The position numbers and the translations under genes are program-made. A stretch of DNA of 64,000 bases. Origin: Nannocystis pusilla (GTDB lineage Bacteria; Myxococcota_A; Polyangia; Nannocystales; Nannocystaceae). The notes beneath the pieces are model-generated. The model saw nothing but the letters and a program-made list of their open reading frames with translations, ran no database searches and was not told where the DNA came from. Shown piece by piece: positions 17,296 to 63,616 of the stretch (within the stretch, counting starts at the first letter, position 1; each line of letters opens with the position of its first letter). The DNA lies in assembly GCF_026626665.1 (NCBI RefSeq), contig NZ_JAPNKE010000002.1, forward strand, positions 1,421,204 through 1,485,203. Direction: 5' to 3'.

Positions 17296-17358
17296 GCGGG
17301 CGAGGGCGACGCTCCCCGCGTGCCCCGAGCGGACGCGCGGCCCGGCGGTCGATGGCCG

Positions 17359-17435
17359 CGAGGACATGTCCGTGAGGATATGCTCGGAGGACATGCACTC
17401 GAGAGCCTGTTCATGAGGACATGCTCTCGAGTGCC
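17359..17435. repeat. Cluster of four GAGGACATGYNC units (GGACATGTCC-core family)
   Basis: Intergenic, between mqnD and the convergent ABC ATPase gene. Confidence 0.6.
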
Positions 17436-17459
17436 TGTAGCGATGGCGACGGGCGGACG

Positions 17460-23513: not shown

Positions 23514-23518
23514 GTTCG

Positions 23519-23588
23519 CGGGCATGCCCGATCGGGCATGTCTGCCAGGGCATGGCTGATGGGGCATGTGCTTCGAGACATGCCCTGA
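23519..23588. repeat. Cluster of GGGCATGCCC / GGGCATGTCT / GAGACATGCCC units (GGACATGTCC-core family)
   Basis: Intergenic, between the convergent EEP and amidohydrolase genes. Confidence 0.6.
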
Positions 23589-23591
23589 GGT

Positions 23592-24619
23592 TCATGGTGG
23601 GCGGTAGGCGCCGAGCCAGGCGCGGGCGTTGCCGCCGAGCAAGCGGGAGACGGCGGGCTCGGGGAGCGCGAGGCCGAAATAGACGCCGGGGGTGAGCGCG
23701 CCGATCCGGGCGGCGTGGCGCCAGAACTCGAACCGCTCGCGCTCGAGCAGGCCGAGGTTGGCGGCGAGCTGCAGGTCCCAGGCGCGCGCGGCGTCGAGGT
23801 CGCCGGGGGCCCCGCGCGCGGTGACGAGGTCGGAGCCGAACAGGAACCGCTCGGGCTGGATCTCGATGAGGGCGCGCAGCCGGTCCCGATCCTCCTCGAT
23901 GGCGGTGAAGCCGTCGACGCCGGGCAGGCCGGCGCCGTGGCTGGTGTCGACGCGCAGCCGCGGGAACTCGCGCAGCAGGCCGGCGAGGCGATCGAGGTCG
24001 GTGCGACTGCCGCACAGGTGGGCGCAGACCAGCTCGAGGCGCGGGTGGGCCCGCAGCACGCGGGCGAGCTCGTCGCGGTAGCGCACGGTGTTGACGTGGA
24101 CGAGCACGGGCACCGAGCGCTGCTCGAGCCACTCGAACAGGGAGGCGTGGGCCGGATCGTCGAGCGGGCGGGCGTGCAGCTTCTGGTGGCCGAAGTACAG
24201 CTTGACGCCGCGAGCCCCCGCTGAAACCACCGCTCGAGCGCGGGGATGTCGACCTCGGCCGGCTCGACGGCGATGAACGGGAACAGGCGCGCGCGGTGGG
24301 CCGCGGTGGCGGCGAGCAGGGCGTCGTTGGCCTCGCGCCAGCCGTGCATGCGCGCATCGGGGCCGGGAGCGAGGCCGAGCGCGGGATCGAGGTGCGGCGA
24401 GGCGATCACGACGGCGGCGGCGATGGCGTTGCGATCGAGCGCGGCGAGCAGGTCGTCGACCGCGCCGCCGACGAGGTGGACGTGGACGTCGACGCGGTCG
24501 CGCGCGGCAGGTTCGTCGTCGATGCCGGTGGTGCCGGTCGGCGTCGGGACGCCGCAGGCGAGCGCCAGGCCGGCGAGCAGGAGGGCCGCGAGGCGCCCCG
24601 CAGAGGCTTCAGCACTCAC
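23592..24619 (-). CDS. Secreted TIM-barrel amidohydrolase (amidohydrolase_2-like), apparent 1-nt frameshift near 24205-24215
   Basis: N-terminal signal peptide and VDVHVHL metal-binding motif in the frame of ORF 23270-24619. The C-terminal 2/3 (GVKLYFGHQ...) are in the frame of ORF 23592-24230. The switch is at a GGGGG run. Confidence 0.5.
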
Positions 24620-25389: not shown

Positions 25390-25750
25390 CGCGGAGACGG
25401 GATGTCCCAAAGGCCAGGCAGAGAGCCGGCGCGCCGCGCTTCCCGGATGTCCGAAGGGGCAGGCGATCCACGCGGACGACGAGGGGCGGATCTGCGAGAT
25501 CGAGATGTCCGGAGAGACAGGCGGCCGCGGCCGGAGCGCGCGCGAGGATGTCCGGAGAGACAGGGGGCCGCGGACGGAGCGCGCGCGGGATGTTCGGAGA
25601 GACAGGCGGCCGCGGCCGGAGTGCGCGCGAGATGTCCGGAGAGACAGGCGGACGCGGCCGGAGCGCGCGAGATGTCCGGAGAGACAGGCGGCCGCGGCCG
25701 GAGCGCGCGCGGGATGTCCGGAGAGACAGGCCGGTGGGGGTGACTGCGAG
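25390..25750. repeat. Tandem array of ~8 units of ~43 nt (GATGTCCGGAGAGACAGGCGGCCGCGGCCGGAGCGCGCGCGAG)
   Basis: Direct periodicity read at 25502-25735, with degenerate copies from 25395. There are no unique spacers, so this is not a CRISPR array. The unit is related to the GGACATGTCC family. Confidence 0.8.
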
Positions 25751-36814: not shown

Positions 36815-38395
36815 ATGTCGTCAGTCTTCTCGCATCTGCTTGTCCGGTTCTCTGTGTGCGGCGCTCTCGGGGTGACTCTCGGGGTGATCTTGGGCGCGTG
36901 CTCGGCGACCCTCGACTTCACCGAGTGCTACGAAGACGCCGACTGCGCGGCGTTCTTCGACGACAACAAGCCGATGTACTGCGCGGCCAACGTCTGCAAG
37001 ATCCGCGAGAAGGGCTGTGACGCCAACTCGCAGTGCGCGGGCCTCGGCGAGTCGTACATCTGCGCGACCTCGAGTGCCCCGCGCGAGTGCGCCTCGACCG
37101 AGTCCGACGAGTGCGGCGCGCCCATCTACCCCGGGGGCGAGATCAGCGACGACGTCGCGTTCATCGGCGTGATGCTGCCGAAGACCGGCGCCGACGCCGA
37201 CCTCGGGCTCGAGATGGAGAAGGGCGTGCTCGCGGCGGTCGAGGAGTTCAACGCCAGCGGCGAGCTGCCGAACGGCGACAAGATCGCGCTGGTGGTGTGC
37301 GACACCAAGAGCGAGGTCGCGTCGGCGACGTCGGCCGCGCGCCACCTCGGCGACACGCTGACGATCCCGGTGCTCATCGGTCCGGCCGACGACGTCGAGT
37401 TCACGGCGGTGGTCGACCAGGTGACGTTCGCCCAGGGCGTCAACGCGTTCACGATGGGGCCGATGATCACGGCCGACATGAGCGAGCTCGACACCTCGAC
37501 CGGCAGCGGCCTGGTGTTCCAGGCGATGGCCGGCGCGAAGTTCCAGGGCCCGGCGCTGGGCGAGCGCATCGGGGCCGACTTCACCGGCGACCCGACGGCC
37601 AACGCGATCCTCCTGCTGTCGGAGGACGCGTACGGGCTCAGCCTTTACAACGCGGTGGCGACCGAGGAGACGGGCGGGCCGAGCCAGATCCCGCAGGTCC
37701 CGGGCAGTCAGTTCATCGCCTCGTACCGCGGGCTCGACGACGCCACCAAGGGCGCCAAGGCCAAGCTCGACACGGCGCTCAAGACCTTCGCGGAGCCGCC
37801 GATGCTGATCCTGCTCGGGCGGTCCGAGGTCGCCGAGATCATCAAGCACTACAAGACCACCGGCGCCCCGCTGCCGCAGAAGATCTACGTGCCCAAGCGG
37901 GCGATGCCGGCGGTCTCGGCGCTCGAGGACCCCGATCTCGCGGGCATCGTCGTCGCCGTCACGCCCGACCTCGAGACGCCGCAGCTCGCCAAGCTGCGCA
38001 CGCGCCTCGGCGAGGCGAACCTCGCGCCCGAGGGCGCGCTCGCCTACGACGCGACGATGGCGTCGCTGTTCGGCATGGCGGCCGTGAAGTCGGGCGACAT
38101 CGTGGTCGGCCTGCGCGTCGCCGACGCGTTCAAGAAGCTGTCCGACAAGGCCGGCACGCCGATCGACTTCGGCGTCGGCCCGAAGATGTTCGTGCCCGCC
38201 GCGCTCACCGCCTTCCAGTCGAGCAAGACCATCGACCTCGTCGGCATCACCGGCCCGCTCGACTTCGACGCCAGCGGCGAGGTGTGCAGCCCGATCGCCG
38301 CCTACACGCTCGACGACAAGGGCGGGTGGACGAAGACCGCCGTGTACACGCCCGCCTGCCCGAGCGCGACCGGCACCTGGGCGCCCGTCCCCTGA
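36815..38395 (+). CDS. Type I periplasmic binding protein (LivK/Peripla_BP_6-like) lipoprotein with N-terminal Cys-rich module; no cognate ABC genes nearby
   Basis: ILGACS lipobox, an 80-aa Cys-rich segment, then a PBP fold (VAFIGVMLPKTG...ALVVCDTKS...). Confidence 0.6.
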   Translation: MSSVFSHLLVRFSVCGALGVTLGVILGACSATLDFTECYEDADCAAFFDDNKPMYCAANVCKIREKGCDANSQCAGLGESYICATSSAPRECASTESDECGAPIYPGGEISDDVAFIGVMLPKTGADADLGLEMEKGVLAAVEEFNASGELPNGDKIALVVCDTKSEVASATSAARHLGDTLTIPVLIGPADDVEFTAVVDQVTFAQGVNAFTMGPMITADMSELDTSTGSGLVFQAMAGAKFQGPALGERIGADFTGDPTANAILLLSEDAYGLSLYNAVATEETGGPSQIPQVPGSQFIASYRGLDDATKGAKAKLDTALKTFAEPPMLILLGRSEVAEIIKHYKTTGAPLPQKIYVPKRAMPAVSALEDPDLAGIVVAVTPDLETPQLAKLRTRLGEANLAPEGALAYDATMASLFGMAAVKSGDIVVGLRVADAFKKLSDKAGTPIDFGVGPKMFVPAALTAFQSSKTIDLVGITGPLDFDASGEVCSPIAAYTLDDKGGWTKTAVYTPACPSATGTWAPVP

Positions 38396-38419
38396 GCCGC
38401 GCCCGTGCGTGAGAGGCGT

Positions 38420-38445
38420 GACCGCCAGGACATGTCCTGGCGGTC
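38420..38445. repeat. Perfect 26-bp palindrome GACCGCCAGGACATGTCCTGGCGGTC
   Basis: Lies 25 nt after the PBP stop, in the gap between convergent genes. GGACATGTCC core. Confidence 0.85.
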
Positions 38446-38654
38446 ATGCTGCTTTCGGGGCGCGCGCCGAGCTCGAACGGCGGCCCTGAAGCGCCGCGGT
38501 CGACGGTCGCTCCGCGCACGCGAGCGCGGTCGTGGATGCGCACCCGCCGGCGAGGCGAGCGCGACCCGAGCGCCCACACGGCAGCGCGGGATGGTGAAGA
38601 GCCGGACACTCGAGCTCGCTCGTGGACGTCCCGCGGCGCGTCTCTCAATCAACA

Positions 38655-38715
38655 GGGCCGTTCGGACATGTCCGAACGGCCCTGCGTGAGCGGGCATGTC
38701 CATCGGGACATGCCG
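38655..38715. repeat. Perfect 28-bp palindrome GGGCCGTTCGGACATGTCCGAACGGCCC followed by the imperfect palindrome CGGGCATGTCCATCGGGACATGCCG
   Basis: Read directly; the element ends ~7 nt before the ACAD stop. Confidence 0.85.
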
Positions 38716-38721
38716 TAAAGG

Positions 38722-40530
38722 TCAGACGAACAGCGCGGGGTCGAGGGCGCTCTCGTCGTTCGACTGGATGCTCTTGCCGAGGGCGATCGCCTGCGGGAGG
38801 ATCGCGGCGACGAAGAACTCGAGGTTGCGCTGCTTGCCGACGAGCAGCGGCTCGTCGCCGCGGGTCTGGCGGAGGCGGGCGGCGACTATCGCCTGCTCGA
38901 CGCACTCGATGGCGAGCAGGACCAGGCCGAACATGCGCGTGAAGGGGACGGCCTGGATCATCGCCGCCTCGACCTTGCGCGCCTTGCCGAGGCCCGCGAG
39001 GTGCATCGCGCTGGCGGCGAGCAGCTGCACCGCCTTGCCGATCGCCTCGGCGGGGCCGCCGAGCCCGGCCTCCGCGGCGGCGGCGAGCCGGCTCTGGGCC
39101 TCCTGCATCCACTCGATGAACAGCGCGCCGCCGCCGACCCGCAGCTTGCGGCCGACCAGGTCCATGGCCTGGATGCCGTTGGTGCCCTCGTAGATCGAGC
39201 AGATCTTGACGTCGCGGACGAGCTGCTCGACGGGGTACTCGCCGATGTAGCCGTAGCCGCCGTAGACCTGGACCGCGCCGACGGCGACCTCGAAGCCGAG
39301 GTCGGTGCAGGTGGCCTTGAGGATCGGCGTGAGCAGGTCGACGCGGCCGCGCAGGCGCTCGCGCTCGGCCGGGTCCTCGGTGGCGTGCTCGCGGTCGACG
39401 ACCAGCGCCGTGCGCAGCAGCAGCGACCGCATGGCCTCGGCGTAGACCTTCTGCGTCATCAGCATGCGGCGGACGTCGGGGTGCTGGACGATCGCCACGC
39501 TGGGCGCGTCCTGGCTGCGGGCCTCGCGGATCGACTGGCCCTGGATCCGCTCCTGCGCGTAGCCGCGGGCGTAGTTGAAGGCCGCGGCCGCCATCGCGTG
39601 GCCCTGCACGGCGACGCCGATCCGCGCCTCGTTCATCATCAGGAACATCAGCTCGATGCCCTGGTTCTCCTGGCCGATGAGGACGCCGCGACACGGGAGG
39701 TCGCCGCCGAGGCCGAGGACGCAGGTCGAGGAGCCGTGGATGCCCATCTTCTCCTCGATGCGCAGCACCTTGGCGCCGTTGCGGGCCCCGAGCGCGCCGC
39801 CGGCGTCGAACTCGTACTTCGGGACCATGAACAGCGACAGGCCCTTGGTGCCCTTGCCGGCGTTCGGGGTGCGGGCGAGCACCAGGTGGACGATGTTGGC
39901 GGTCAGGTCCTGGTCGCCGCCGCTGATGAAGATCTTCTCGCCCTCGAGCAGATAGACGCCGGGCTCATCCGTGGGGGTGGCGCGGCAGCGGTTGTCGCCG
40001 ACCGAGCTGCCGGCGCCGGCCTCGGTGAGGCACATGGTGCCGCCCCACTCGCCGGTGAACATCTTGCGGGCGATCATCTCCCGCGTGGCCTCCGGGCCGT
40101 GGCCGAGGATCACGCGCGCGGCGCCGACGGTCAGGCCGGCGTACATCATGAACGCCATGCAGGCGCCACACAGCATCTCGCTCAGGCTGACGTGGATCGT
40201 GAAGGGCAGGCCGCTGCCGCCGAGCTCGCTGGGCGCCGAGGGCGCGAGCCAGCCGCCCTCGCGCAGGAGCTCCCAGGCCTCGCGATAGCCCTTCGGGGTC
40301 GTGACGTTGCCCTGGCCGTCGAAGCGGCAGCCCGCGAGATCGCCGGGCGCATTGATCGGGGCCAGGACCTCCCGCGCCAGGCGCTCGCCCTCCGCGAGCG
40401 TGGCCTCGTAGACCTCGCGGTCGAGCTCGGCGAAGCGCGGGATCGCGGCGAGCTGCTCGTGCGCGGCGAGCTGGTCGAAGAGGACGAAGTGGAGATCGCG
40501 GAGGTCGACGGAGAAGCTGGTGGTGCTCAC
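38722..40530 (-). CDS. Acyl-CoA dehydrogenase (long, ~600 aa, FadE-like with C-terminal extension)
   Basis: ACAD N-terminal, middle and C-terminal domain motifs ([28 protein letters not shown]). GTG at 40530. Confidence 0.8.
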
Positions 40531-41347: not shown

Positions 41348-43405
41348 ATGGCGACGAACGAAGGGAGCCGCGACTCCGGCCAGGCTGGCGAGGATCGATC
41401 GGTGCCGCGGTTGACCGCGGTCATCGTGGATCCTCCGGACTCGCTCCCGCCGACGCCCGTGGTCTCGCACGAGCTGGGCGCCGACGACGACCTCGCAGAG
41501 GAGTATGAGGCAGCGCTCGAGAACCAGGTCTCGGCGGCCCACTTCTCGATCGAGCTCGGACGCCCGTCCGGCGAGGTCGAGCTCGACGGGCAGCCGACGA
41601 GCGTGGACGGCGAGCCCCAGGCCGAAGACGAGGACACCGTCGAGCGCACCGCCGCCAAGAGCCTCAAGGCCAAGGCGACGGCGGCCAAGCGCGACGCGCT
41701 GTTCGGCCAGGTGCTGGCCGACCGCTACCGGATCCTCGACCTCATCGGCAAGGGCGGGATGGGCAAGGTCTACCTCGCCGAGCACGTGGCGCTCGGCAAG
41801 AAGGTGGCCGTCAAGGTCCTGAACCCGGCCTACACCAACCGCCCCGACCAGGTGAAGCGGTTCCTCCGCGAGGCCCGGGCGGCGTCGACGATCGGCCACG
41901 AGAACGTCATCGACATCACCGACTTCGGCGCGATGCCCAACGGCCAGGTGTTCTTCGCCATGGAGCACCTGCAGGGCGAGGACCTCGGCAAGATCCTCAA
42001 GAAGGGGCCGATGTCGTGGGCGCGGGCCCGCCGGGTGCTGCTGCAGATCTGCCGCGCGCTGCAGGCCGCCCACGCGCACGGGATCATCCACCGGGACATG
42101 AAGCCGGAGAACGTCTTCCTGATCCAGCGCAACGGGATCCGCGACTTCGTCAAGGTGCTCGACTTCGGGATCGCCAAGTTCCTCGAGGAGAACCGCGACG
42201 GCGGCACGAACCCGCTGACGCAGGTGGGCGCGCTGATCGGCACGCCCGAGTACATGGCGCCGGAGCAGATCCACGGCGACCCGGCCGACCAGCGCATGGA
42301 CATCTATGCGGTCGGCTGCATCCTCTATCAGCTGCTCACCGGCAACCTCCCGTTCACCGACAAGACGATGTACGGGGTGCTGTCGCAGCAGGTGAACGCC
42401 AAGCCGGTGCCGCCGCGGCAGCTGGCGCCCGAGGCCGACATCCCGGTCGAGGTCGAGGCGGTCATCCTGAAGGCGATGGAGAAGGACAAGACGCAGCGTT
42501 ACCAGACGATGGGCGAGCTGATCGAAGCCATCGTCGCGACGCCGCGCGGGGCCGCCGGGGACGTCGGGCGGACCACCACGACCAACCTCGAGGCGGCGGC
42601 CCAGGCGGCGCGCCTGGCCGTCGGGGTCAGCATGCCGGCGGGCGTGGCCGTGCCCAACCCGGTCACGCCGGACGACTCGTTGCTGACGCAAGGACTCAGC
42701 AGCGCGTCGGGGCTGCGGCCGACGTCGCTGTCGCTGCCGTGGCGCGGCGGGACGATGGACGCGCAGATGTTGTCGCGCCTGGTGATCGGCCTCGGCGCGG
42801 CGGTGCTGGTGCTGGTGGTCGGCCTGGTGTGCGCGCTCAGCCGCAGCGACGATCCGAAGCCGCAGCCGGTCGACAAGCCCAGCGAGGTCGCGGCGGTCAC
42901 GGCCGGCTCGCCCGAGGCGCCGAAGCCGGTCGAGACGCCGGAGACGAAGATCGAGGCGCCGCCGGAGACGAAGGTCGAGCCGACGCCGGAGCCGAAGAAG
43001 GCCGACGACGAGCCGATCGTGGTCGACGACGAGGCGAAGAAGGACGCGGGCAAGAAGGCCACCGAGCCCAAGAAGACGACCACGGTCAAGAAGAGCGAGC
43101 CGTCCGCGCCGAAGGGCGAAGAGGTGTCGGCCAACTGGCCCGAGGTGCTGGGGCCGATGGAGCGCTCGCAGGCGCTGAAGAGCTACCGCGCCGAGTTCGA
43201 GACCTGCCGGACGATCAGCACGCCGAAGGGCAAGACCTACAAGCTGCGGCTCAAGGTCGACGGCCCGAAGGGGCGCGTGACCGAGGCGACGTCCGACGAC
43301 ACGAGCGCGGAGGCGAAGTGCCTGGCGCGGGCCTTCAAGACCAAGGTCCGGTTCGTCAACACCCGCAAGACGCCGCAAGAGTTCACGATCGTCGTGCCGC
43401 TCTGA
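41348..43405 (+). CDS. Ser/Thr protein kinase with a single TM helix and Lys/Pro/Glu-rich extracytoplasmic region
   Basis: GKGGMGKVY, HRDMKPENV, DFGIAK, GTPEYMAPE. TM segment LVIGLGAAVLVLVVGLVCAL. Confidence 0.8.
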   Translation: MATNEGSRDSGQAGEDRSVPRLTAVIVDPPDSLPPTPVVSHELGADDDLAEEYEAALENQVSAAHFSIELGRPSGEVELDGQPTSVDGEPQAEDEDTVERTAAKSLKAKATAAKRDALFGQVLADRYRILDLIGKGGMGKVYLAEHVALGKKVAVKVLNPAYTNRPDQVKRFLREARAASTIGHENVIDITDFGAMPNGQVFFAMEHLQGEDLGKILKKGPMSWARARRVLLQICRALQAAHAHGIIHRDMKPENVFLIQRNGIRDFVKVLDFGIAKFLEENRDGGTNPLTQVGALIGTPEYMAPEQIHGDPADQRMDIYAVGCILYQLLTGNLPFTDKTMYGVLSQQVNAKPVPPRQLAPEADIPVEVEAVILKAMEKDKTQRYQTMGELIEAIVATPRGAAGDVGRTTTTNLEAAAQAARLAVGVSMPAGVAVPNPVTPDDSLLTQGLSSASGLRPTSLSLPWRGGTMDAQMLSRLVIGLGAAVLVLVVGLVCALSRSDDPKPQPVDKPSEVAAVTAGSPEAPKPVETPETKIEAPPETKVEPTPEPKKADDEPIVVDDEAKKDAGKKATEPKKTTTVKKSEPSAPKGEEVSANWPEVLGPMERSQALKSYRAEFETCRTISTPKGKTYKLRLKVDGPKGRVTEATSDDTSAEAKCLARAFKTKVRFVNTRKTPQEFTIVVPL

Positions 43406-44712
43406 TGCGCGTCGCGTTCAGCACGCTCGGCTGTCGCCTCAACCAGTTCGAGTCCGACGCCCTCGAGCAGATGGCCCGCGCGGCCGGCCACACCGTGGTC
43501 GACGCCGAGGCCGCGCCCGAGGTCGTGATCGTCAACACCTGCACGATCACCCACGAGGCCGACGCCGACGCGCGCCAGCACGTGCGCCGGGCCGCGCGCG
43601 CCGGGGCGAAGGTGGTGGTCACCGGCTGCTGGGCGACGGCCGCCCCCGCCGAGGCGGCGGCGCTGCCCGGGGTGACGCTGGTGGTCGGCAACCGCGAGAA
43701 GGAGCGGCTGTTCGAGGTGCTCGGAGAGACATGTTCGGAAGGACATGTCCCGGAGATCCACGTGGCCCCGGTCGACCTGCTGCGGCGCGTCCGCGCGGCC
43801 CGCTTGCGCCCGGCCGCCGACCCGCGGCGCAGCCGGGCGTACCTGAAGATCCAGGACGGCTGCGACTACCGCTGCAGCTTCTGCATCGTGCCGCAGGTGC
43901 GCGGGCGCAGCGTGAGCGTGGCGCCCGCGGAGGCGCGGGCGCAGCTGGACGAGCTGGTCGCCGCGGGGGTGCCCGAGGTGGTGCTCACCGGGGTCCACCT
44001 CGGGATCTACGGCCGCGACCTGCGGCCGCGCAGCTCGTTGTCGTCGCTCGTCGCGGAGCTGCTGCCGCAGCTCGGGTCGGCGCGGCTGCGCCTCGGCTCG
44101 GTCGATCCGCACGAGGTCGACGATGACCTGGTGACGCTGTTGGCGAGCGACCCGCGGCTGTGTCCGTACCTCCACTTGCCGGTGCAGAGCGGCGACGACG
44201 ACACGCTGCGGCGCATGCGGCGGGCGCACACCGCCGCCGACCTGCAGGCGCTGGTGCCTCGCCTGGCCGCGGCGGTGCCGGGGATCGGCGTGGGCACCGA
44301 CGTGATCGTCGGCTTCCCGGGCGAGTCGGAGGAGGCGTTCGCGGCCACGCACGCGCTGCTGGCCGCGCTGCCGCTGGCGTACCTGCACGTGTTCGCCTAC
44401 TCGCCGCGCGCGGGCACCGACGCCGCCTGTCTCTCGGGTCAGGTCGACGCGGCGGTCAAGCAGCGGCGCGGGATGGCGTTGCGGGCGCTGTCGGCGGCGA
44501 AGCAGGAGGCGTTCGCGGCGGCGCAGATCGGGCGAACCCTGCCGGTGGTGATGCACCGGTCGCGACACCGGCGTACAGGGCTGCTGGTGGGTCGGGCCGG
44601 CAACGGCTTGACGGTGCTGGCGGCCGGCGACGACGCGCTGCTGGGCCGGGCGACCCAGATCGAGGTCGAGCGCGCCGAGGGGCCGCTCGCGCTCGGTCGA
44701 CTGCTCGCGTGA
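43405..44712 (+). CDS. MiaB-like tRNA methylthiotransferase (MtaB-type MTTase: N-terminal MTTase domain plus radical SAM)
   Basis: The ATG overlaps the kinase TGA (TGATG). CDYRCSFCIVP radical SAM motif; N-terminal VNTCTITHEAD. Confidence 0.8.
   Translation: MRVAFSTLGCRLNQFESDALEQMARAAGHTVVDAEAAPEVVIVNTCTITHEADADARQHVRRAARAGAKVVVTGCWATAAPAEAAALPGVTLVVGNREKERLFEVLGETCSEGHVPEIHVAPVDLLRRVRAARLRPAADPRRSRAYLKIQDGCDYRCSFCIVPQVRGRSVSVAPAEARAQLDELVAAGVPEVVLTGVHLGIYGRDLRPRSSLSSLVAELLPQLGSARLRLGSVDPHEVDDDLVTLLASDPRLCPYLHLPVQSGDDDTLRRMRRAHTAADLQALVPRLAAAVPGIGVGTDVIVGFPGESEEAFAATHALLAALPLAYLHVFAYSPRAGTDAACLSGQVDAAVKQRRGMALRALSAAKQEAFAAAQIGRTLPVVMHRSRHRRTGLLVGRAGNGLTVLAAGDDALLGRATQIEVERAEGPLALGRLLA
43724..43760. 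repeat. GGACATGTCC-family element (GAGACATGTTCGGAAGGACATGTCCCGGAG) lying in frame inside the MTTase coding sequence
   Basis: Encodes ...GETCSEGHVPE... in the linker between the MTTase N-domain and the radical SAM core. Confidence 0.6.
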
Positions 44713-44990
44713 GTGCGGCGCGATGCGTGACTTCGCTGCGGAGGAGCCTCGGGCGAGTACCGACGCTCACGCGCCGGTTCGGTTCGAACTTCCGGACAGG
44801 TGATGCGCCACGAGCCGCGTTTGCCCGCCGATCCCTGTTCCGGACAGGCAGGGCGCGGGACAGGTGATGCGCCACGAGCCGCGTTTTGTCCGCCGATCCC
44901 TGTTCCGGGACAGGCAAGGCGCGGCCGTTCACGAGCGTTCGAGTCGGTCTGAACTTCGGGACAGGTGATGCGCCTCGCCGGTCAGCCCCA
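44713..44990. repeat. Tandem array of ~65-nt units (GGACAGGTGATGCGCCACGAGCCGCGTTTGCCCGCCGATCCCTGTTCCGGACAGGCAGGGCGCG), two full and two partial copies
   Basis: Direct repeat read at 44792-44985. The units contain a GAACTTCGGGACAGG module that is also present at 57618. Confidence 0.75.
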
Positions 44991-45767: not shown

Positions 45768-45804
45768 GCGAGATCAGCCGGACGGACGTCGGCGCCGAGC
45801 TGGC

Positions 45805-45826
45805 CGCGAGGACATGTCCTGGCGGC
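45805..45826. repeat. Near-perfect palindrome CCGCGAGGACATGTCCTGGCGG
   Basis: Intergenic, between the hypothetical gene and the MBL hydrolase gene. Confidence 0.6.
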
Positions 45827-45834
45827 CAGTCGGC

Positions 45835-49928: not shown

Positions 49929-50234
49929 GGGCGCCCGCGGGCGCGCCGCTTGCCCTCGGTCACGAGCCCTGGCGGGGCGCGAGATTCCCGACGCGGCCGA
50001 ACTTCATCACCGAGTGGTGCGTGGTCGAAGTCGGGGCGGGAGGCGGCCAGCGATCGGGTGCGGCGCGGCTCGAGCGACGCGGGGGCGAAATCACTTCACG
50101 GCGGGCTGAACCGTCGCGGATGGCCTGGCGGCGAGGAGCACGGGGGCGGGCTGAACGGTCGCGGCGACGCGGGCCCGGCGGCTCGCGGACGGCGAGGAAC
50201 CTCGTGCGACCGCGCGAGGCTCTCGTCGCGCTCG

Positions 50235-52928: not shown

Positions 52929-53010
52929 GCGAGGCGCGCGGACGGGACGCGATCGGGGCCGAGGCGCGGCGGTCGGTTCAGGCTCAGGCAGACGCGACGG
53001 GTGTCTTTGA

Positions 53011-53046
53011 GGACAGGGCCCATGGGACATGCCCGATGGGTCAGGC
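53011..53046. repeat. GGACAGGGCCCATGGGACATGCCCGATGGGTCAGG, a GGACATG-family element
   Basis: Intergenic, between the convergent maf and lipoprotein genes. Confidence 0.55.
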
Positions 53047-53047
53047 G

Positions 53048-56784: not shown

Positions 56785-57584
56785 GCCCCGGCTCCGAGTG
56801 TGCACTGCCAGCCGACCGCGAGGTGCGGCTCGAGGGCGATCCGCGCCGGGGCGCCGGCGGCCAGCGCCTCGACCAGGGCGAGCGCGGCGGCGCACGGGTT
56901 TTCGGCCAGGGCGGCCGGGACCGGACGTGGCGCCGGGAGCATGTCGCTGGGGCCATGTTCGAGGCGACATGTCCTCGCGGGCATGTCGCCGGGGACAGGC
57001 GCCGACAGGGCGAAGGCGGCGGCGAACGGGTCCCAGCGGCGGCCGGCGGCCAGCGGCTCGGGCAGCGGCTCCTCGGCGATCACGAGCACCACGTCGCCCT
57101 CGCCGGCGGCCACGAGGGCGGCGCACTCGACGAGGCCCATGGCGAGGGTGCTGCGGCCGGCCGACAGCGCGGCGTTGCCGGCCCGGTTGCCGGTGGCGAT
57201 CGAGACGTAGCCGGCGGCCGTGTTGTGGACGCTGTTGTGGAACTTGGTCGGCGACAGCGGCTCGCCGGCGACGAGCAGGGCGGCGAGCAGGTCGAGGGTG
57301 GTGCGGATCTCGCCGTAGACGGAGCCGTAGACGAGGGTGGCCGCGGCCCGGTCGACGCCGCCGTCCTGCAGCGCCTGGGCCGCGACCTCGGCGGCCATGC
57401 GGGTGAGCAGGCTGGTGCGCCGGCGCATCATCGGCGGCAGCAGCTCGGCCTTCGGGGCGGAGGGCTCGGTCGGCGGCGCCTGTCCTTCGGGCCAGGTGTC
57501 GGGCCGGGCCCGCCAGGCGGCGAGGTCGGGGTAGCCTGGGGTCCAGAAGCCGAGGCCGCGGACGGTGAAGGCGAGCGCGCTCAT
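56781..57584 (-). CDS. Beta-ketoacyl synthase N-terminal-domain protein without catalytic Cys (chain-length-factor-like, PF13723-like)
   Basis: MSALAFTVRGLGFWTPGY...TKFHNSVHNTAAGYVSI matches the KS-N family found in aryl-polyene-type clusters. It contains an in-frame GGACATG-repeat insert. Confidence 0.45.
   Translation of the reverse strand: MSALAFTVRGLGFWTPGYPDLAAWRARPDTWPEGQAPPTEPSAPKAELLPPMMRRRTSLLTRMAAEVAAQALQDGGVDRAAATLVYGSVYGEIRTTLDLLAALLVAGEPLSPTKFHNSVHNTAAGYVSIATGNRAGNAALSAGRSTLAMGLVECAALVAAGEGDVVLVIAEEPLPEPLAAGRRWDPFAAAFALSAPVPGDMPARTCRLEHGPSDMLPAPRPVPAALAENPCAAALALVEALAAGAPARIALEPHLAVGWQCTLGAGA
56931..57010. repeat. GGGCATGTCGC...GCGACATGTCCTCGCGGGCATGTCGCC repeat cluster lying in frame inside the KS-N-like CDS
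   Basis: Encodes ...PGDMPARTCRLEHGPSDMLPAP... on the minus strand. Confidence 0.55.
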
Positions 57585-57617
57585 GCCGGGCCTCGGACGA
57601 GGCGTGGGGTCAGAGCT

Positions 57618-57729
57618 GAACTTCGGGACATGGCCCGGAAGACCTGTACGAAAGAGCAGCCGCACGGACAGAGGCGCCGCCGGGGAGGTGTCGTCGGGGA
57701 CATGTCCCGGGAGACCTGTCGGAAGGTGC
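57618..57729. repeat. Two GGACATG-family units (GAACTTCGGGACATGGCCCGGAAGACCTGTACG and GGGGACATGTCCCGGGAGACCTGTCGGAAGG)
   Basis: Intergenic, between the KAS stop (57730) and the KS-N-like start (57584). Confidence 0.65.
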
Positions 57730-63376: not shown

Positions 63377-63412
63377 GCCGACGCGGCCGCGCCCGGGTCC
63401 TCTCGATGATTG

Positions 63413-63453
63413 TTTGGACATGCTCATGCAGACATGTCCGAAGAGTCTCCTTA
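63413..63453. repeat. TTGGACATGCTCATGCAGACATGTCCGAAGAGTC, two GGACATG-family units
   Basis: Intergenic, downstream of the kinase gene. Confidence 0.6.
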
Positions 63454-63616
63454 CATCGTCGCCGGCGGGCGCACCCGCGCGAGCGATCCTGGCCGGCGCG
63501 CCGACGCGCGCGTGCGATGTAACGTGTTCGTATGTACCTGTGACTGATCCATGAGGGGGTCGGGCTACGCTCATTCGGCTGGGGACCGGGCGTGATGGGC
63601 CCGGGGACAGAAGGCA

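What the first reader, a model, noticed from the sequence alone, without database searches (positions are those of the whole stretch)
38420..38715. Three long perfect or near-perfect palindromes packed between the convergent PBP and acyl-CoA dehydrogenase genes
GACCGCCAGGACATGTCCTGGCGGTC (26 bp, perfect) starts 25 nt after the PBP stop. GGGCCGTTCGGACATGTCCGAACGGCCC (28 bp, perfect) and CGGGCATGTCCATCGGGACATGCCG end ~7 nt before the ACAD stop. All three are centred on the family core. Their position suggests bidirectional transcription terminators or RNA-stabilising hairpins built from the repeat family, in a genome where U-tracts are rare.
Basis: partly seen in the sequence, partly recalled or inferred. 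Interest (0 to 1): 0.6.

Follow-up and report, generated by a model that had tools for sequence, protein, structure and literature searches.

The report
Repeat-built terminator hairpins between convergent genes
Between two genes that face each other in a Nannocystis (myxobacterium) genome sit three strong hairpin-forming palindromes. They are built from a previously undescribed repeat with a 14-base period, found only in this group of species. Two of the hairpins are kept across species and most likely mark and protect the ends of the two transcripts.

Summary
The 326-nt gap between a periplasmic-binding-protein gene (36815-38395, +) and an acyl-CoA dehydrogenase gene (38722-40530, -) holds the two longest perfect palindromes of the 64-kb window: H1 (28 bp) and H2 (32 bp). 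It also holds a 9-bp/4-nt-loop hairpin, H3.

All three belong to a repeat family with core GGACATGTCC (7 exact copies, 0.05 expected). The family's real grammar is CATG every 14 nt. H1 is 3 such units and H2+H3 are 5.

The family is confined to the Nannocystis exedens/pusilla/punicea/radixulma/bainbridge clade. It sits at gene 3' ends (5 of 8 convergent junctions, no divergent one). It also shows insertion, duplication and in-frame coding polymorphisms.

H1 plus its tail UGCUUUCGG is nearly invariant in five species, while the spacer next to it cannot be aligned. Its stem changes are compensatory or G.U. More distant relatives have one generic hairpin at the same junction.

Best reading: two face-to-face transcript-end hairpins (terminator or 3' stabiliser) built from a REP-like, lineage-specific repeat. 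They are not single bidirectional terminators, and the family is not only a terminator. How the repeat spreads, and why CATG is conserved, remain open. Interest is moderate.

The parts
36815..38395 (+). Upstream convergent gene: periplasmic substrate-binding protein (Peripla_BP_6), stop codon TGA at 38393-38395
   Evidence: Pfam PF13458, E = 3e-18. Orthologues are named ABC transporter substrate-binding protein in N. punicea and N. bainbridge.
38416..38449 (+). H1: 17-bp stem with CAUG loop. The perfect 28-bp palindrome is 38419-38446. It equals three 14-nt units, CGTG-CATG-CATG, at 38418/38432/38446.
   Evidence: (I4). It is conserved in N. exedens, punicea, radixulma and bainbridge. One C-G pair changed to U-A, and there are G.U variants. 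95.5% of cells are paired.
38450..38458 (+). Tail of H1 on the PBP-sense strand: TGCTTTCGG, a short U-containing tract
   Evidence: GCTTTC is invariant in all six aligned lineages. This includes L172, where the hairpin apex is different. The 40-mer of H1 plus tail shows 6 pairwise differences, against at least 20.6 expected from 4-fold sites.
38459..38641 (.). Hypervariable spacer between the two hairpin units
   Evidence: blastn alignments to relatives of 93-95% flank identity break at about 38458 and resume at 38634-38652. In N. radixulma, at 90% flank identity, the alignment resumes only at the ACAD stop, 38728. Spacer length is 37 nt in N. bainbridge and about 400 nt in N. radixulma.
38642..38652 (-). 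Tail of H2 on the ACAD-sense strand: TTGATTGAGAG
   Evidence: Tails are T-enriched in this orientation in four species: TTGATTG, TCGCTTTCGG, TAGCTTGTC, TTCGTTCGG.
38653..38684 (-). H2: perfect 32-bp palindrome forming a 14-bp stem with a 4-nt CAUG loop. It equals three 14-nt units, CAGG-CATG-CCTG, at 38654/38668/38682.
   Evidence: (I3). It is kept in four species, with U-A changed to C-G (N. exedens) and to G-C (N. radixulma). L172 has a different-stem version.
38693..38714 (-). H3: two neighbouring cores (GGCATGTCC / GGACATGCC) paired across the 4-nt loop ATCG, 7 nt from the ACAD stop
   Evidence: It is present in the window and N. exedens (different loop, one mismatch). It is degenerate in N. 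punicea and absent in N. radixulma. In N. bainbridge a 5-unit array takes its place.
38722..40530 (-). Downstream convergent gene: acyl-CoA dehydrogenase (N, M, C and Acyl-CoA_dh_C domains), stop codon at 38722-38724
   Evidence: Pfam. 96% amino-acid identity to N. exedens DSM 71.

Best explanation
The three palindromes are local members of a lineage-specific family of short tandem palindromic repeats. The unit is 14 nt: a 10-nt palindromic core GGACATGTCC plus 4 nt.

The units form hairpins in two ways. In the first, the two 10-nt segments either side of a central CATG are complementary (H1, H2). In the second, two neighbouring cores pair across the 4-nt spacer (H3).

At this junction the repeats have been kept as two opposed transcript-end modules.
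- The PBP transcript ends at or is trimmed back to H1, a 17-bp GC-rich stem with a CAUG loop followed by UGCUUUCGG.
- The ACAD transcript runs through the dispensable H3 and ends at H2, a 14-16-bp stem followed by a U-richer tail.

The hairpins would act in one or both of two ways. They could destabilise the elongation complex, as a weak-U-tract intrinsic terminator of the kind common in high-GC bacteria. They could also block 3'-to-5' exonucleases. Either way, each gene is insulated from antisense read-through by its neighbour.

Shown:
- the anatomy and the excess over chance;
- family membership and restriction to one clade;
- the 3'-end bias;
- conservation of H1 plus tail and of H2, with pairing-preserving changes;
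- replacement by generic hairpins in outgroups.

Inferred: that the structure acts in RNA, that it terminates or stabilises transcripts, and how the family spreads.
For: Anatomy and chance.

14-nt grammar:
- CATG-to-CATG distances peak at 14 (13 pairs), 28 (9) and 42 (10), against about 1 expected.
- TRF finds period-14 arrays at 17352, 23534, 53011 and 57695.
- Arrays are listed.

3'-end bias:
- Arrays occupy 5 of 8 convergent gaps and 3 tandem gaps.
- None of about 9 divergent gaps holds one.

Clade restriction (CATG pairs 14 nt apart; control spacings give about 1.2):
- 13 per 64 kb in the window.
- 29 per 129 kb in clade loci.
- 1 per 76 kb in Nannocystis MAGs at 72-76% amino-acid identity.
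- 1 per 213 kb in other Nannocystaceae.

Conservation at this junction:
- The H1-plus-tail 40-mer is identical in N. punicea and N. bainbridge.
- It has 2 changes in N. exedens (compensatory) and 4 in N. radixulma.
- That is 6 pairwise differences, against at least 20.6 expected from ACAD 4-fold sites.
- The spacer beside it is unalignable.
- H1 pairing: 95.5% of cells paired, 3 pairs changed on both sides.

Same role with different sequence elsewhere:
- L173/L174 carries AGAGGACATGCCC-TTTG-GGGCATGTCCTCT followed by TTTCTTAG.
- L172 keeps the outer stem and GCTTTCGGG tail of H1 with a different apex.
- L004 and L090 have one generic GC hairpin.

Generic terminator-like hairpins elsewhere in the window have similarly short U tails...GCGATTTCCTTTCG and ...GGCTCTTTGCG.
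Against: - No transcript 3'-end data are available.
- The canonical terminator scan finds no site. The U tracts are only 3 U long, and other family copies lack them.
- Family copies also lie inside an operon (KS/KS2 gap) and inside coding sequence. The repeat itself therefore cannot be an obligatory terminator.
- The loop tetranucleotide CATG is the best-retained part across orthologues: 83%, against 72% for flanks, 63% for the rest of the array and 55% outside. This is the opposite of what a plain terminator loop would show.
- The perfection of the palindromes and the 'compensatory' changes could arise at the DNA level by template switching or arm-to-arm correction, without RNA-level selection.
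- The covariation shuffles are not significant with six sequences.
- The G.U versus A.C asymmetry (about 7:3 events) is confounded by the G-rich + strand.
Confidence: 0.55

Rival explanations
1. Selfish REP/REPIN-like or MITE-like mobile DNA. On this view the hairpins are what a still unidentified transposase (for example a RAYT/HUH enzyme) recognises on single-stranded DNA. They accumulate at gene 3' ends only because insertions are tolerated there. They have no role in transcript 3'-end formation at this junction.
For: - The expansion is lineage-specific.
- There is an insertion polymorphism. A 118-175-nt insert carrying family units lies between KS and KS2. It is flanked by a 17-20-nt direct duplication of the target. 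It is present in the window, N. pusilla and N. exedens. It is absent in N. radixulma and L088, where the genes overlap at ATGA.
- N. punicea has a tandem duplication of a hairpin unit at the 45.8-kb junction.
- A MiaB-like gene carries a 12-nt in-frame insertion.
- H3 varies in presence or absence.
Against: - Only the 10-nt core is shared between copies. The stems differ from copy to copy, unlike REP families.
- There is no GTAG or CGTC tag beside the hairpins (sequence).
- No transposase or HUH gene was found among the window genes scanned (about 1-27 kb and 33-43 kb) or the genes called in the fetched loci.
- H1 plus tail evolves more than 3 times slower than 4-fold sites, while the neighbouring spacer turns over.
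- Outgroups keep a hairpin at the same place, so the place needs one.
- Scans of viral contigs gave only chance-level hits.
Confidence: 0.15
2. Double-stranded DNA sites for a lineage-specific dimeric protein. Each 10-bp palindrome GGACA|TGTCC would be one operator-like site. Arrays in a fixed 14-bp register (42 bp is 4 helical turns) would allow cooperative binding. The function would be, for example, a transcription roadblock, a topological or nucleoid organiser at convergent junctions, or a methylation-linked CATG site.
For: - CATG and its flanks are the most retained positions.
- The core serves as a loop in some copies and as a stem in others. The sequence is constant rather than its structural role.
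- The 14-nt register is strict, up to 6 units (23523-23593). A related period-42 array lies at 25504-25731.
- The spacings GGACA|TGTCC and TGTCC-N4-GGACA are both enriched, 7 copies each.
- Copies are tolerated in coding DNA.
Against: - No candidate protein is known.
- A protein site does not explain why 10-13 nt beyond the core are complementary and change in a pairing-preserving way.
- It also does not explain the conserved one-sided tail.
- The motif is absent from promoter (divergent) regions.
- The alignment-based retention figure may be inflated, because the aligner anchors on the shared motif.
Confidence: 0.15
3. Chance or compositional by-product of a 71% G+C genome, in which any intergenic stretch folds well.
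For: In this genome almost every 46-nt window downstream of a gene folds at -20 kcal/mol or better: 32 of 42 gene 3' ends. Fold energy alone is therefore uninformative.
Against: - 7 exact cores against 0.05 expected.
- 13 CATG pairs at exactly 14 nt against about 1.2 at control spacings.
- The two longest perfect palindromes of 64 kb lie in one 326-nt gap.
- z is about -5 against dinucleotide shuffles.
- The features are conserved across species.
Confidence: 0.01

Closest known systems
REP / BIME elements of Enterobacteria and Pseudomonas (REPINs mobilised by RAYT transposases)
   Same: Both are short extragenic palindromes. Both are strongly over-represented and cluster in arrays at gene 3' ends and inside operons. 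Both are lineage-specific and persist vertically. Both form hairpins that in known cases stabilise upstream mRNA or attenuate or terminate transcription. General knowledge; REPIN/RAYT papers were listed (PMC3116915, PMC3337134) but not read.
   Different: The unit here is 14 nt, against 20-40 nt for REP. The shared part is only a perfectly palindromic 10-mer, so copies have no orientation. The stems differ between copies. There is no GTAG/CGTC tag. No RAYT was seen in the DNA sampled. Copies occur in frame in coding DNA.
Intrinsic (Rho-independent) terminators of high-G+C bacteria with short or absent U tracts
   Same: Both have a GC-rich stem-loop a few to tens of nt after the stop codon. The trailing U-containing tract is short and conserved. 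Convergent genes each have their own hairpin.
   Different: The hairpins here share a family core and a fixed 14-nt register. The loop is the most conserved part. The canonical consensus scan does not call them.
MIRUs (mycobacterial interspersed repetitive units) and Rickettsia palindromic elements (RPE)
   Same: Like MIRUs, one copy sits between operon genes whose stop and start codons overlap. The insertion preserves both the stop codon and the RBS plus start codon. Like RPEs, a copy is tolerated in frame within a protein-coding gene. The comparison rests on my own knowledge of these families.
   Different: Unit size and sequence are unrelated (46-150 nt in those families). There is no evidence here that the inserts are translated as mini-ORFs. 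The family is found in a different phylum.
Neisseria DUS / Haemophilus USS pairs and cyanobacterial HIP1
   Same: All are short (8-12 nt) over-represented words. DUS often occur as inverted pairs forming terminator-like hairpins downstream of genes. HIP1 is a palindromic word containing a methylation site.
   Different: Density here is about 1 exact core per 9 kb. The location is overwhelmingly at intergenic 3' ends (5 of 7 exact cores in about 15% of the sequence), not genome-wide. The 14-nt tandem register has no counterpart in those systems. No link to competence or methylation was tested.

Membership tests
REP/BIME-RAYT (REPIN) system | Extragenic imperfect palindromes, highly over-represented, clustered in arrays | tested here: met
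   There are 7 exact cores against 0.05 expected. Arrays have up to 6 units. 8 intergenic loci in 64 kb carry them.
REP/BIME-RAYT (REPIN) system | Whole element (stem included, about 20-40 nt) conserved in sequence between copies of a family | tested here: not met
   Only GGACATGTCC (often only GRCATG) is shared. The stems of H1, H2, the 45810 copy, the L172 copy and others differ.
REP/BIME-RAYT (REPIN) system | Conserved GTAG or CGTC tetranucleotide flanking the hairpin | tested here: not met
   The flanks of H1 (gaggcgt|...|atgctg), H2 (caatcaa|...|cgtgag) and other copies show no common tag.
REP/BIME-RAYT (REPIN) system | A cognate RAYT (Y1/HUH transposase) gene in the genome, typically flanked by the repeats | not testable with these tools
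No transposase was found among the window genes scanned (about 1-27 kb and 33-43 kb) or the genes called in loci L081, L083, L086, L088 and L170. That sample is about 1% of a genome.
Intrinsic terminator | GC-rich stem-loop shortly after the stop codon | tested here: met
   H1 lies 24 nt after the PBP stop, with a best 46-nt window of -34.2 kcal/mol. H3 and H2 lie 7 and 37 nt after the ACAD stop, at -32.1 kcal/mol.
Intrinsic terminator | U tract (at least 5 U in 8) immediately 3' of the stem | tested here: not met
   The scan found 0 sites. Only short tracts exist: UGCUUUCGG after H1 (conserved) and UUGAUUGAG after H2.
Intrinsic terminator | Transcript 3' ends map at the tail of the hairpin | not testable with these tools
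   There are no RNA data. This needs Term-seq or 3' RACE.
MITE | Terminal inverted repeats plus a short target-site duplication, with the element interior conserved between copies | tested here: inconclusive
   The KS/KS2 insert is flanked by a 17-20-nt direct duplication. It has no defined terminal inverted repeats. The interiors of the inserts and of the H1-H2 spacer are not conserved.
Known RNA families (Rfam 15) | Match at or above a family's gathering score | tested here: not met
   There were 0 matches in the window at gathering thresholds. The best sub-threshold match is sucA-II at 24 bits against 70 required, which I regard as chance.

The most novel reading that the evidence does not exclude
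The invariant 10-bp palindrome GGACATGTCC, kept in a strict 14-nt register whether it ends up as loop or as stem, may be the recognition element of a dedicated factor specific to this clade. One candidate is an unknown enzyme that copies or inserts the units, which would make this a REP-like system with a new mobilising activity and a 14-nt unit. Another is a protein that binds the arrays at gene ends to stop or insulate transcription, which would be a protein-dependent end-of-gene signal in a bacterium. In either case the hairpins at the PBP/ACAD junction would be only the visible part of a genome-wide system. By extrapolation from the window, which was not measured genome-wide, that system would have roughly a thousand or more sites.
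Probability: 0.2. Interest if true: 0.7.

Novelty: new variant of a known kind. Interest (0 to 1): 0.45.

Why it matters
Myxobacterial genomes are huge and very G+C-rich, and their terminators are poorly defined. Classic U-tract rules fail here.

This junction gives a concrete and testable model of how transcript ends are built in Nannocystis. A young repeat family is used as raw material for the hairpins.

The family also offers a compact natural experiment in how small palindromic repeats are born, spread and get co-opted. It has a 14-nt unit and a palindromic core. It shows clear gain, loss and duplication events between species that are 90-97% identical.

Practically, the arrays may break short-read assemblies (one contig, L171, ends inside H1). 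They could also serve as strain-typing markers, and as portable terminator parts for engineering these producers of natural products.

Tried and rejected
1. Rfam. There were no matches at gathering thresholds. There were only weak sub-threshold hits at the junction (sucA-II at 24 of 70 bits, plus a miRNA and a snoRNA model). I rejected these as chance.

2. Canonical promoter and terminator scan of 38000-39100. It found nothing.

3. Literature. Searches for Nannocystis or myxobacteria with palindromic/REP terms, and for REPIN/RAYT with Myxococc*, found nothing relevant. GGACATGTCC appears only as the p53 half-site consensus.

4. Metagenome scan with the ACAD C-terminus, to collect more orthologous junctions. 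The best hit was only 74% identical, so it yielded no clade members. It gave one more outgroup with a generic hairpin (L090).

5. Viral-contig scans for the 14-nt register and for the H1 apex. The hits are at chance level, in low or mid G+C contigs, with no further family features.

6. A fold-energy threshold to define 'terminator hairpins' at all gene 3' ends. It does not discriminate at 71% G+C.

7. G.U versus A.C strand asymmetry, to tell RNA-level from DNA-level pairing. The count is about 7:3 events in favour of the sense strand. However, 8:2 are in favour of the G-rich + strand, so the test is confounded and underpowered.

8. Column-shuffle covariation test on H1. It is not significant with six sequences.

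9. H1 and H2 as the two ends of one MITE. Their tails are 71% alike in inverted orientation (I1). The interior is not conserved between close species, so I rejected this.

10. Coding potential of the spacer ORFs (38446-38718 on +, 38302-38703 on -). I rejected it because the spacer cannot be aligned between species.

11. A look-up of my own call of the KS protein failed. Orthologues were then reached through the homologue search.

Full report
**What is in the sequence**

The window is 70-76% G+C. The periplasmic-binding-protein gene (36815-38395, +; Pfam Peripla_BP_6) and the acyl-CoA dehydrogenase gene (38722-40530, -) converge on a 326-nt gap. The gap holds three hairpins.

- H1 is a perfect 28-bp palindrome, TGACCGCCAGGACATGTCCTGGCGGTCA (38419-38446). 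It extends to a 17-bp stem at 38416-38449.
- H2 is a perfect 32-bp palindrome, CAGGGCCGTTCGGACATGTCCGAACGGCCCTG (38653-38684).
- H3 is GGCATGTCC-ATCG-GGACATGCC (38693-38714).

H3 is not centred on a core: it is two cores pairing across a 4-nt loop.

H1 and H2 are the two longest perfect palindromes in all 64 kb. Palindromes with arms of at least 12 nt number 4, against 0.3 in Markov simulations. The junction folds with z of about -5 on either strand.

**The family and its grammar**

- GGACATGTCC occurs 7 times exactly, against 0.05 expected. With one mismatch it occurs 21 times, against 1.9 expected.
- The deeper regularity is a 14-nt period. CATG-to-CATG distances peak at 14 (13 pairs), 28 (9) and 42 (10), where about one is expected.
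- Tandem Repeats Finder independently reports period-14 arrays at 17352, 23534, 53011 and 57695. It also reports a period-42 (3 x 14) array at 25504-25731.
- The 78-nt gap 23514-23591 is filled by six CATG at exactly 14-nt steps. The last of them overlaps the neighbouring gene's stop codon.
- H1 is three units: CGTG-CATG-CATG at 38418/38432/38446.
- H2 plus H3 are five units: CAGG-CATG-CCTG-CATG-CATG at 38654/38668/38682/38695/38709.
- 14 = 10 + 4, and the 10-mer is self-complementary, so the units can pair in two ways. Neighbouring cores can pair across the 4-nt spacer (H3 type). Alternatively, the two inter-core segments can be complementary around a central CATG loop (H1 and H2 type).

**Where the family sits**

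I used a GC3-based gene call, corrected with the gene tables of the related loci.

- Arrays lie in 5 of 8 convergent gaps: 2298-2498, 17296-17459, 23514-23591, 38396-38721 and 52929-53047.
- Arrays lie in three tandem gaps: 45768-45834, about 57585-57729 and 63377-63616.
- No array lies in any of about nine divergent (promoter) gaps.
- Three copies are in coding DNA: 43730/43744, 56940-56982 and 61070.
- No transposase-like gene is present among the window genes scanned or the genes called in the fetched loci.

**Whose genome, and how far the family reaches**

- The window is from Nannocystis. ACAD is 96% identical to N. exedens DSM 71, 95% to N. punicea and 92% to N. radixulma. A ketosynthase is 99% identical to N. 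pusilla. The window is 97.6% identical in DNA to N. pusilla GCA_049337375.1.
- CATG pairs at 14 nt: 13 per 64 kb in the window and 29 per 129 kb in clade loci, where control spacings give about 1.2.
- A 90%-identity relative (L088) has 4 per 14 kb.
- Nannocystis MAGs at 72-76% identity have 1 per 76 kb. Other Nannocystaceae have 1 per 213 kb.
- The family is therefore a young expansion within one clade.

- H1 plus its PBP-sense tail (TGACCGCCAGGACATGTCCTGGCGGTCATGCTGCTTTCGG) is identical in N. punicea and N. bainbridge.
- In N. exedens it carries one compensatory C-G to U-A change.
- In N. radixulma it has four changes, including A-U to G.U.
- That makes 6 pairwise differences. At least 20.6 would be expected from 4-fold sites of the adjacent ACAD gene, whose identities are 0.906, 0.899, 0.805 and 0.875.
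- Over six lineages, 95.5% of H1 pair cells are paired and three pairs changed on both sides. With n = 6 the shuffles are not significant.
- The spacer between H1 and H2 cannot be aligned, even against relatives of 93-95% flank identity. Its length ranges from 37 nt (N. bainbridge) to about 400 nt (N. radixulma).
- H2 is kept in four species, with U-A changed to C-G or G-C and some mismatches.
- H3 is kept only in the window and N. exedens. N. bainbridge has a five-unit array there instead.

Three more divergent lineages are telling.

- L173/L174 (PBP 73%) has AGAGGACATGCCC-TTTG-GGGCATGTCCTCT followed by TTTCTTAG. This is a near-textbook hairpin plus U tail made of two cores.
- L172 (PBP 78%) keeps the outer stem of H1 and its GCTTTCGGG tail. 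Its apex is GGGGCGCGCGCCCC instead of the core.
- The outgroups L004 and L090 keep the convergent gene pair with one generic GC hairpin.

So a hairpin, with a short U-containing tail on the PBP side, is the constant. The family core is the clade's way of building it.

Generic terminator-like hairpins elsewhere in the window have equally short U tails.

**Evidence that the family is, or was, proliferating**

- In N. radixulma and L088, a ketosynthase gene and the next gene overlap at ATGA. In the window, N. pusilla and N. exedens they are separated by a 118-175-nt insert carrying family units. The insert is flanked by a 17-20-nt direct duplication (CGGAGGCCCGGCATGAGC) that preserves both the stop codon and the RBS plus start codon.
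- N. punicea has two tandem copies of the hairpin unit at the 45.8-kb junction. The window has one.
- A MiaB-like gene carries a 12-nt in-frame insertion that completes a second core, relative to the outgroups.
- An array inside the KS2 gene encodes PxDMPARTCRLEHGPSDM. It is partly shared with an outgroup, so there it is also constrained as protein.

**How it most likely works**

I commit to two opposed transcript-end hairpin modules, H1 for PBP and H2 for ACAD (H3 is dispensable). They would act as weak-U-tract intrinsic terminators and/or as barriers to 3' exonucleases. They are built from, and maintained out of, a REP-like repeat specific to this clade. My confidence is about 0.55.

The anatomy, chance tests, family membership, 3'-end bias, conservation and outgroup replacement are shown. 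Action in RNA, and termination itself, are inferred.

**What does not fit neatly**

- CATG, which is the loop in H1 and H2, is the best-retained part across orthologues: 83%, against 72%, 63% and 55% moving outward. Aligner anchoring may inflate this figure.
- The core is constant whether it is a loop or a stem.
- The register is strict, and 42 bp equals four helical turns.
- These points keep open a sequence-specific factor, such as a mobilising enzyme or a DNA-binding protein.
- The perfect symmetry and the 'compensatory' changes could also come from DNA-level template switching in quasi-palindromes.
- The G.U versus A.C asymmetry is confounded by the G-rich + strand.

**Comparison and novelty**

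The closest known kind is REP/BIME elements. The family fails two of their defining features that I could test: whole-element sequence conservation between copies, and the GTAG/CGTC tag. The RAYT association could not be tested. Against the intrinsic-terminator definition, it meets the hairpin criterion but not the U-tract criterion.

Rfam, the literature library and the viral contigs hold nothing like it.

I rate it a new variant of a known kind, with moderate interest (0.45). If a dedicated factor turns out to read the core, the interest would be higher.

Noticed in passing
window 57585-57729 (compare L081 11183-11357, L083 11183-11300, L086 11179-11182, L088 5908-5911): There is an insertion polymorphism inside an aryl-polyene-like or fatty-acid-type operon (KS, KS2, ApeP-like, KR, halogenase). 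A 118-175-nt insert with family units lies between two genes that overlap at ATGA in N. radixulma and L088. It is flanked by a 17-20-nt direct duplication that keeps the stop codon and the RBS plus start codon.
   Followed up: yes
window 43727-43750 (MiaB-like radical-SAM gene 43405-44711, +): Two cores 14 nt apart lie in frame inside the coding sequence. The clade has a 12-nt insertion relative to the Nannocystis MAGs L020 and L004. Those outgroups read GGGACAGGCGACGA where the clade has GAGACATGTTCGGA.
   Followed up: yes
window 56940-56982 (KS2 gene, - strand): Four CATG at exact 14-nt steps lie inside a coding region. They encode ...DMPARTCRLEHGPSDM... The peptide motif DM..RTCRL is shared with an outgroup (L087), which also has GGACATGTCC there. 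So not every array is a recent insertion.
   Followed up: partly
window 25504-25731: There are 5.5 tandem copies of a 42-nt unit (GATGTCCGGAGAGACAGGCGGCCGCGGCCGGAGCGCGCGCGG), 91% alike, in a 600-nt gap between genes on the - strand. 42 = 3 x 14, and the unit carries GATG and CAGG 14 nt apart. It is possibly a higher-order relative of the family.
   Followed up: partly
window 44794-44924: There are two copies of a 64-nt unit (GGACAGGTGATGCGCCACGAGCCGCGTTTTGCCCGCCGATCCCTGTTCCGGGACAGGCAAGGCGCG) in the convergent gap after the MiaB-like gene. It contains the GGACAGG/CCTGTCC words that often occupy degenerate unit positions of the family. N. bainbridge has a true core at this junction (L170 17901).
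   Followed up: partly
window 49929-50234 and the orthologous gaps in L081, L083, L002: A different intergenic repeat (GGGCTGAACGGTCGCGG within units of about 55-60 nt) varies in copy number and sequence between closely related species. Intergenic tandem repeats in general turn over fast in this clade.
   Followed up: no
L002 4719-4914 (N. punicea), orthologous to window 45768-45834: The hairpin unit GCTGGCCGCGAGGACATGTCCTGGCGGCCAG, with about 40 nt of flank, is tandemly duplicated in N. punicea. The hairpin keeps the same internal G.G/C.C mismatch in the window and in both N. punicea copies.
   Followed up: partly
L020 11760-11880 (Nannocystis MAG, ACAD 76%): The last about 25 nt of the ACAD gene, including the stop codon (CGACCCGTCGCTGTTTTGAGCGGCCGCG), are present three times in tandem downstream of the gene. 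This lineage lacks the CATG family.
   Followed up: no
L172 4182-4262: The H1 position keeps the outer stem (GACCGTC...GGCGGTC) and tail (GCTTTCGGG). Its palindromic apex is GGGGCGCGCGCCCC instead of AGGACATGTCCT. An entire symmetric apex was exchanged while the frame stayed homologous.
   Followed up: partly
L171 (contig end at 4218): A short-read contig from a public run ends exactly inside H1. This suggests that the repeats break assemblies.
   Followed up: no
whole window: GC skew is positive in nearly every 2-kb bin, although most genes are on the - strand. This makes the + strand fold more stably (G.U pairs) at nearly every locus tested.
   Followed up: no
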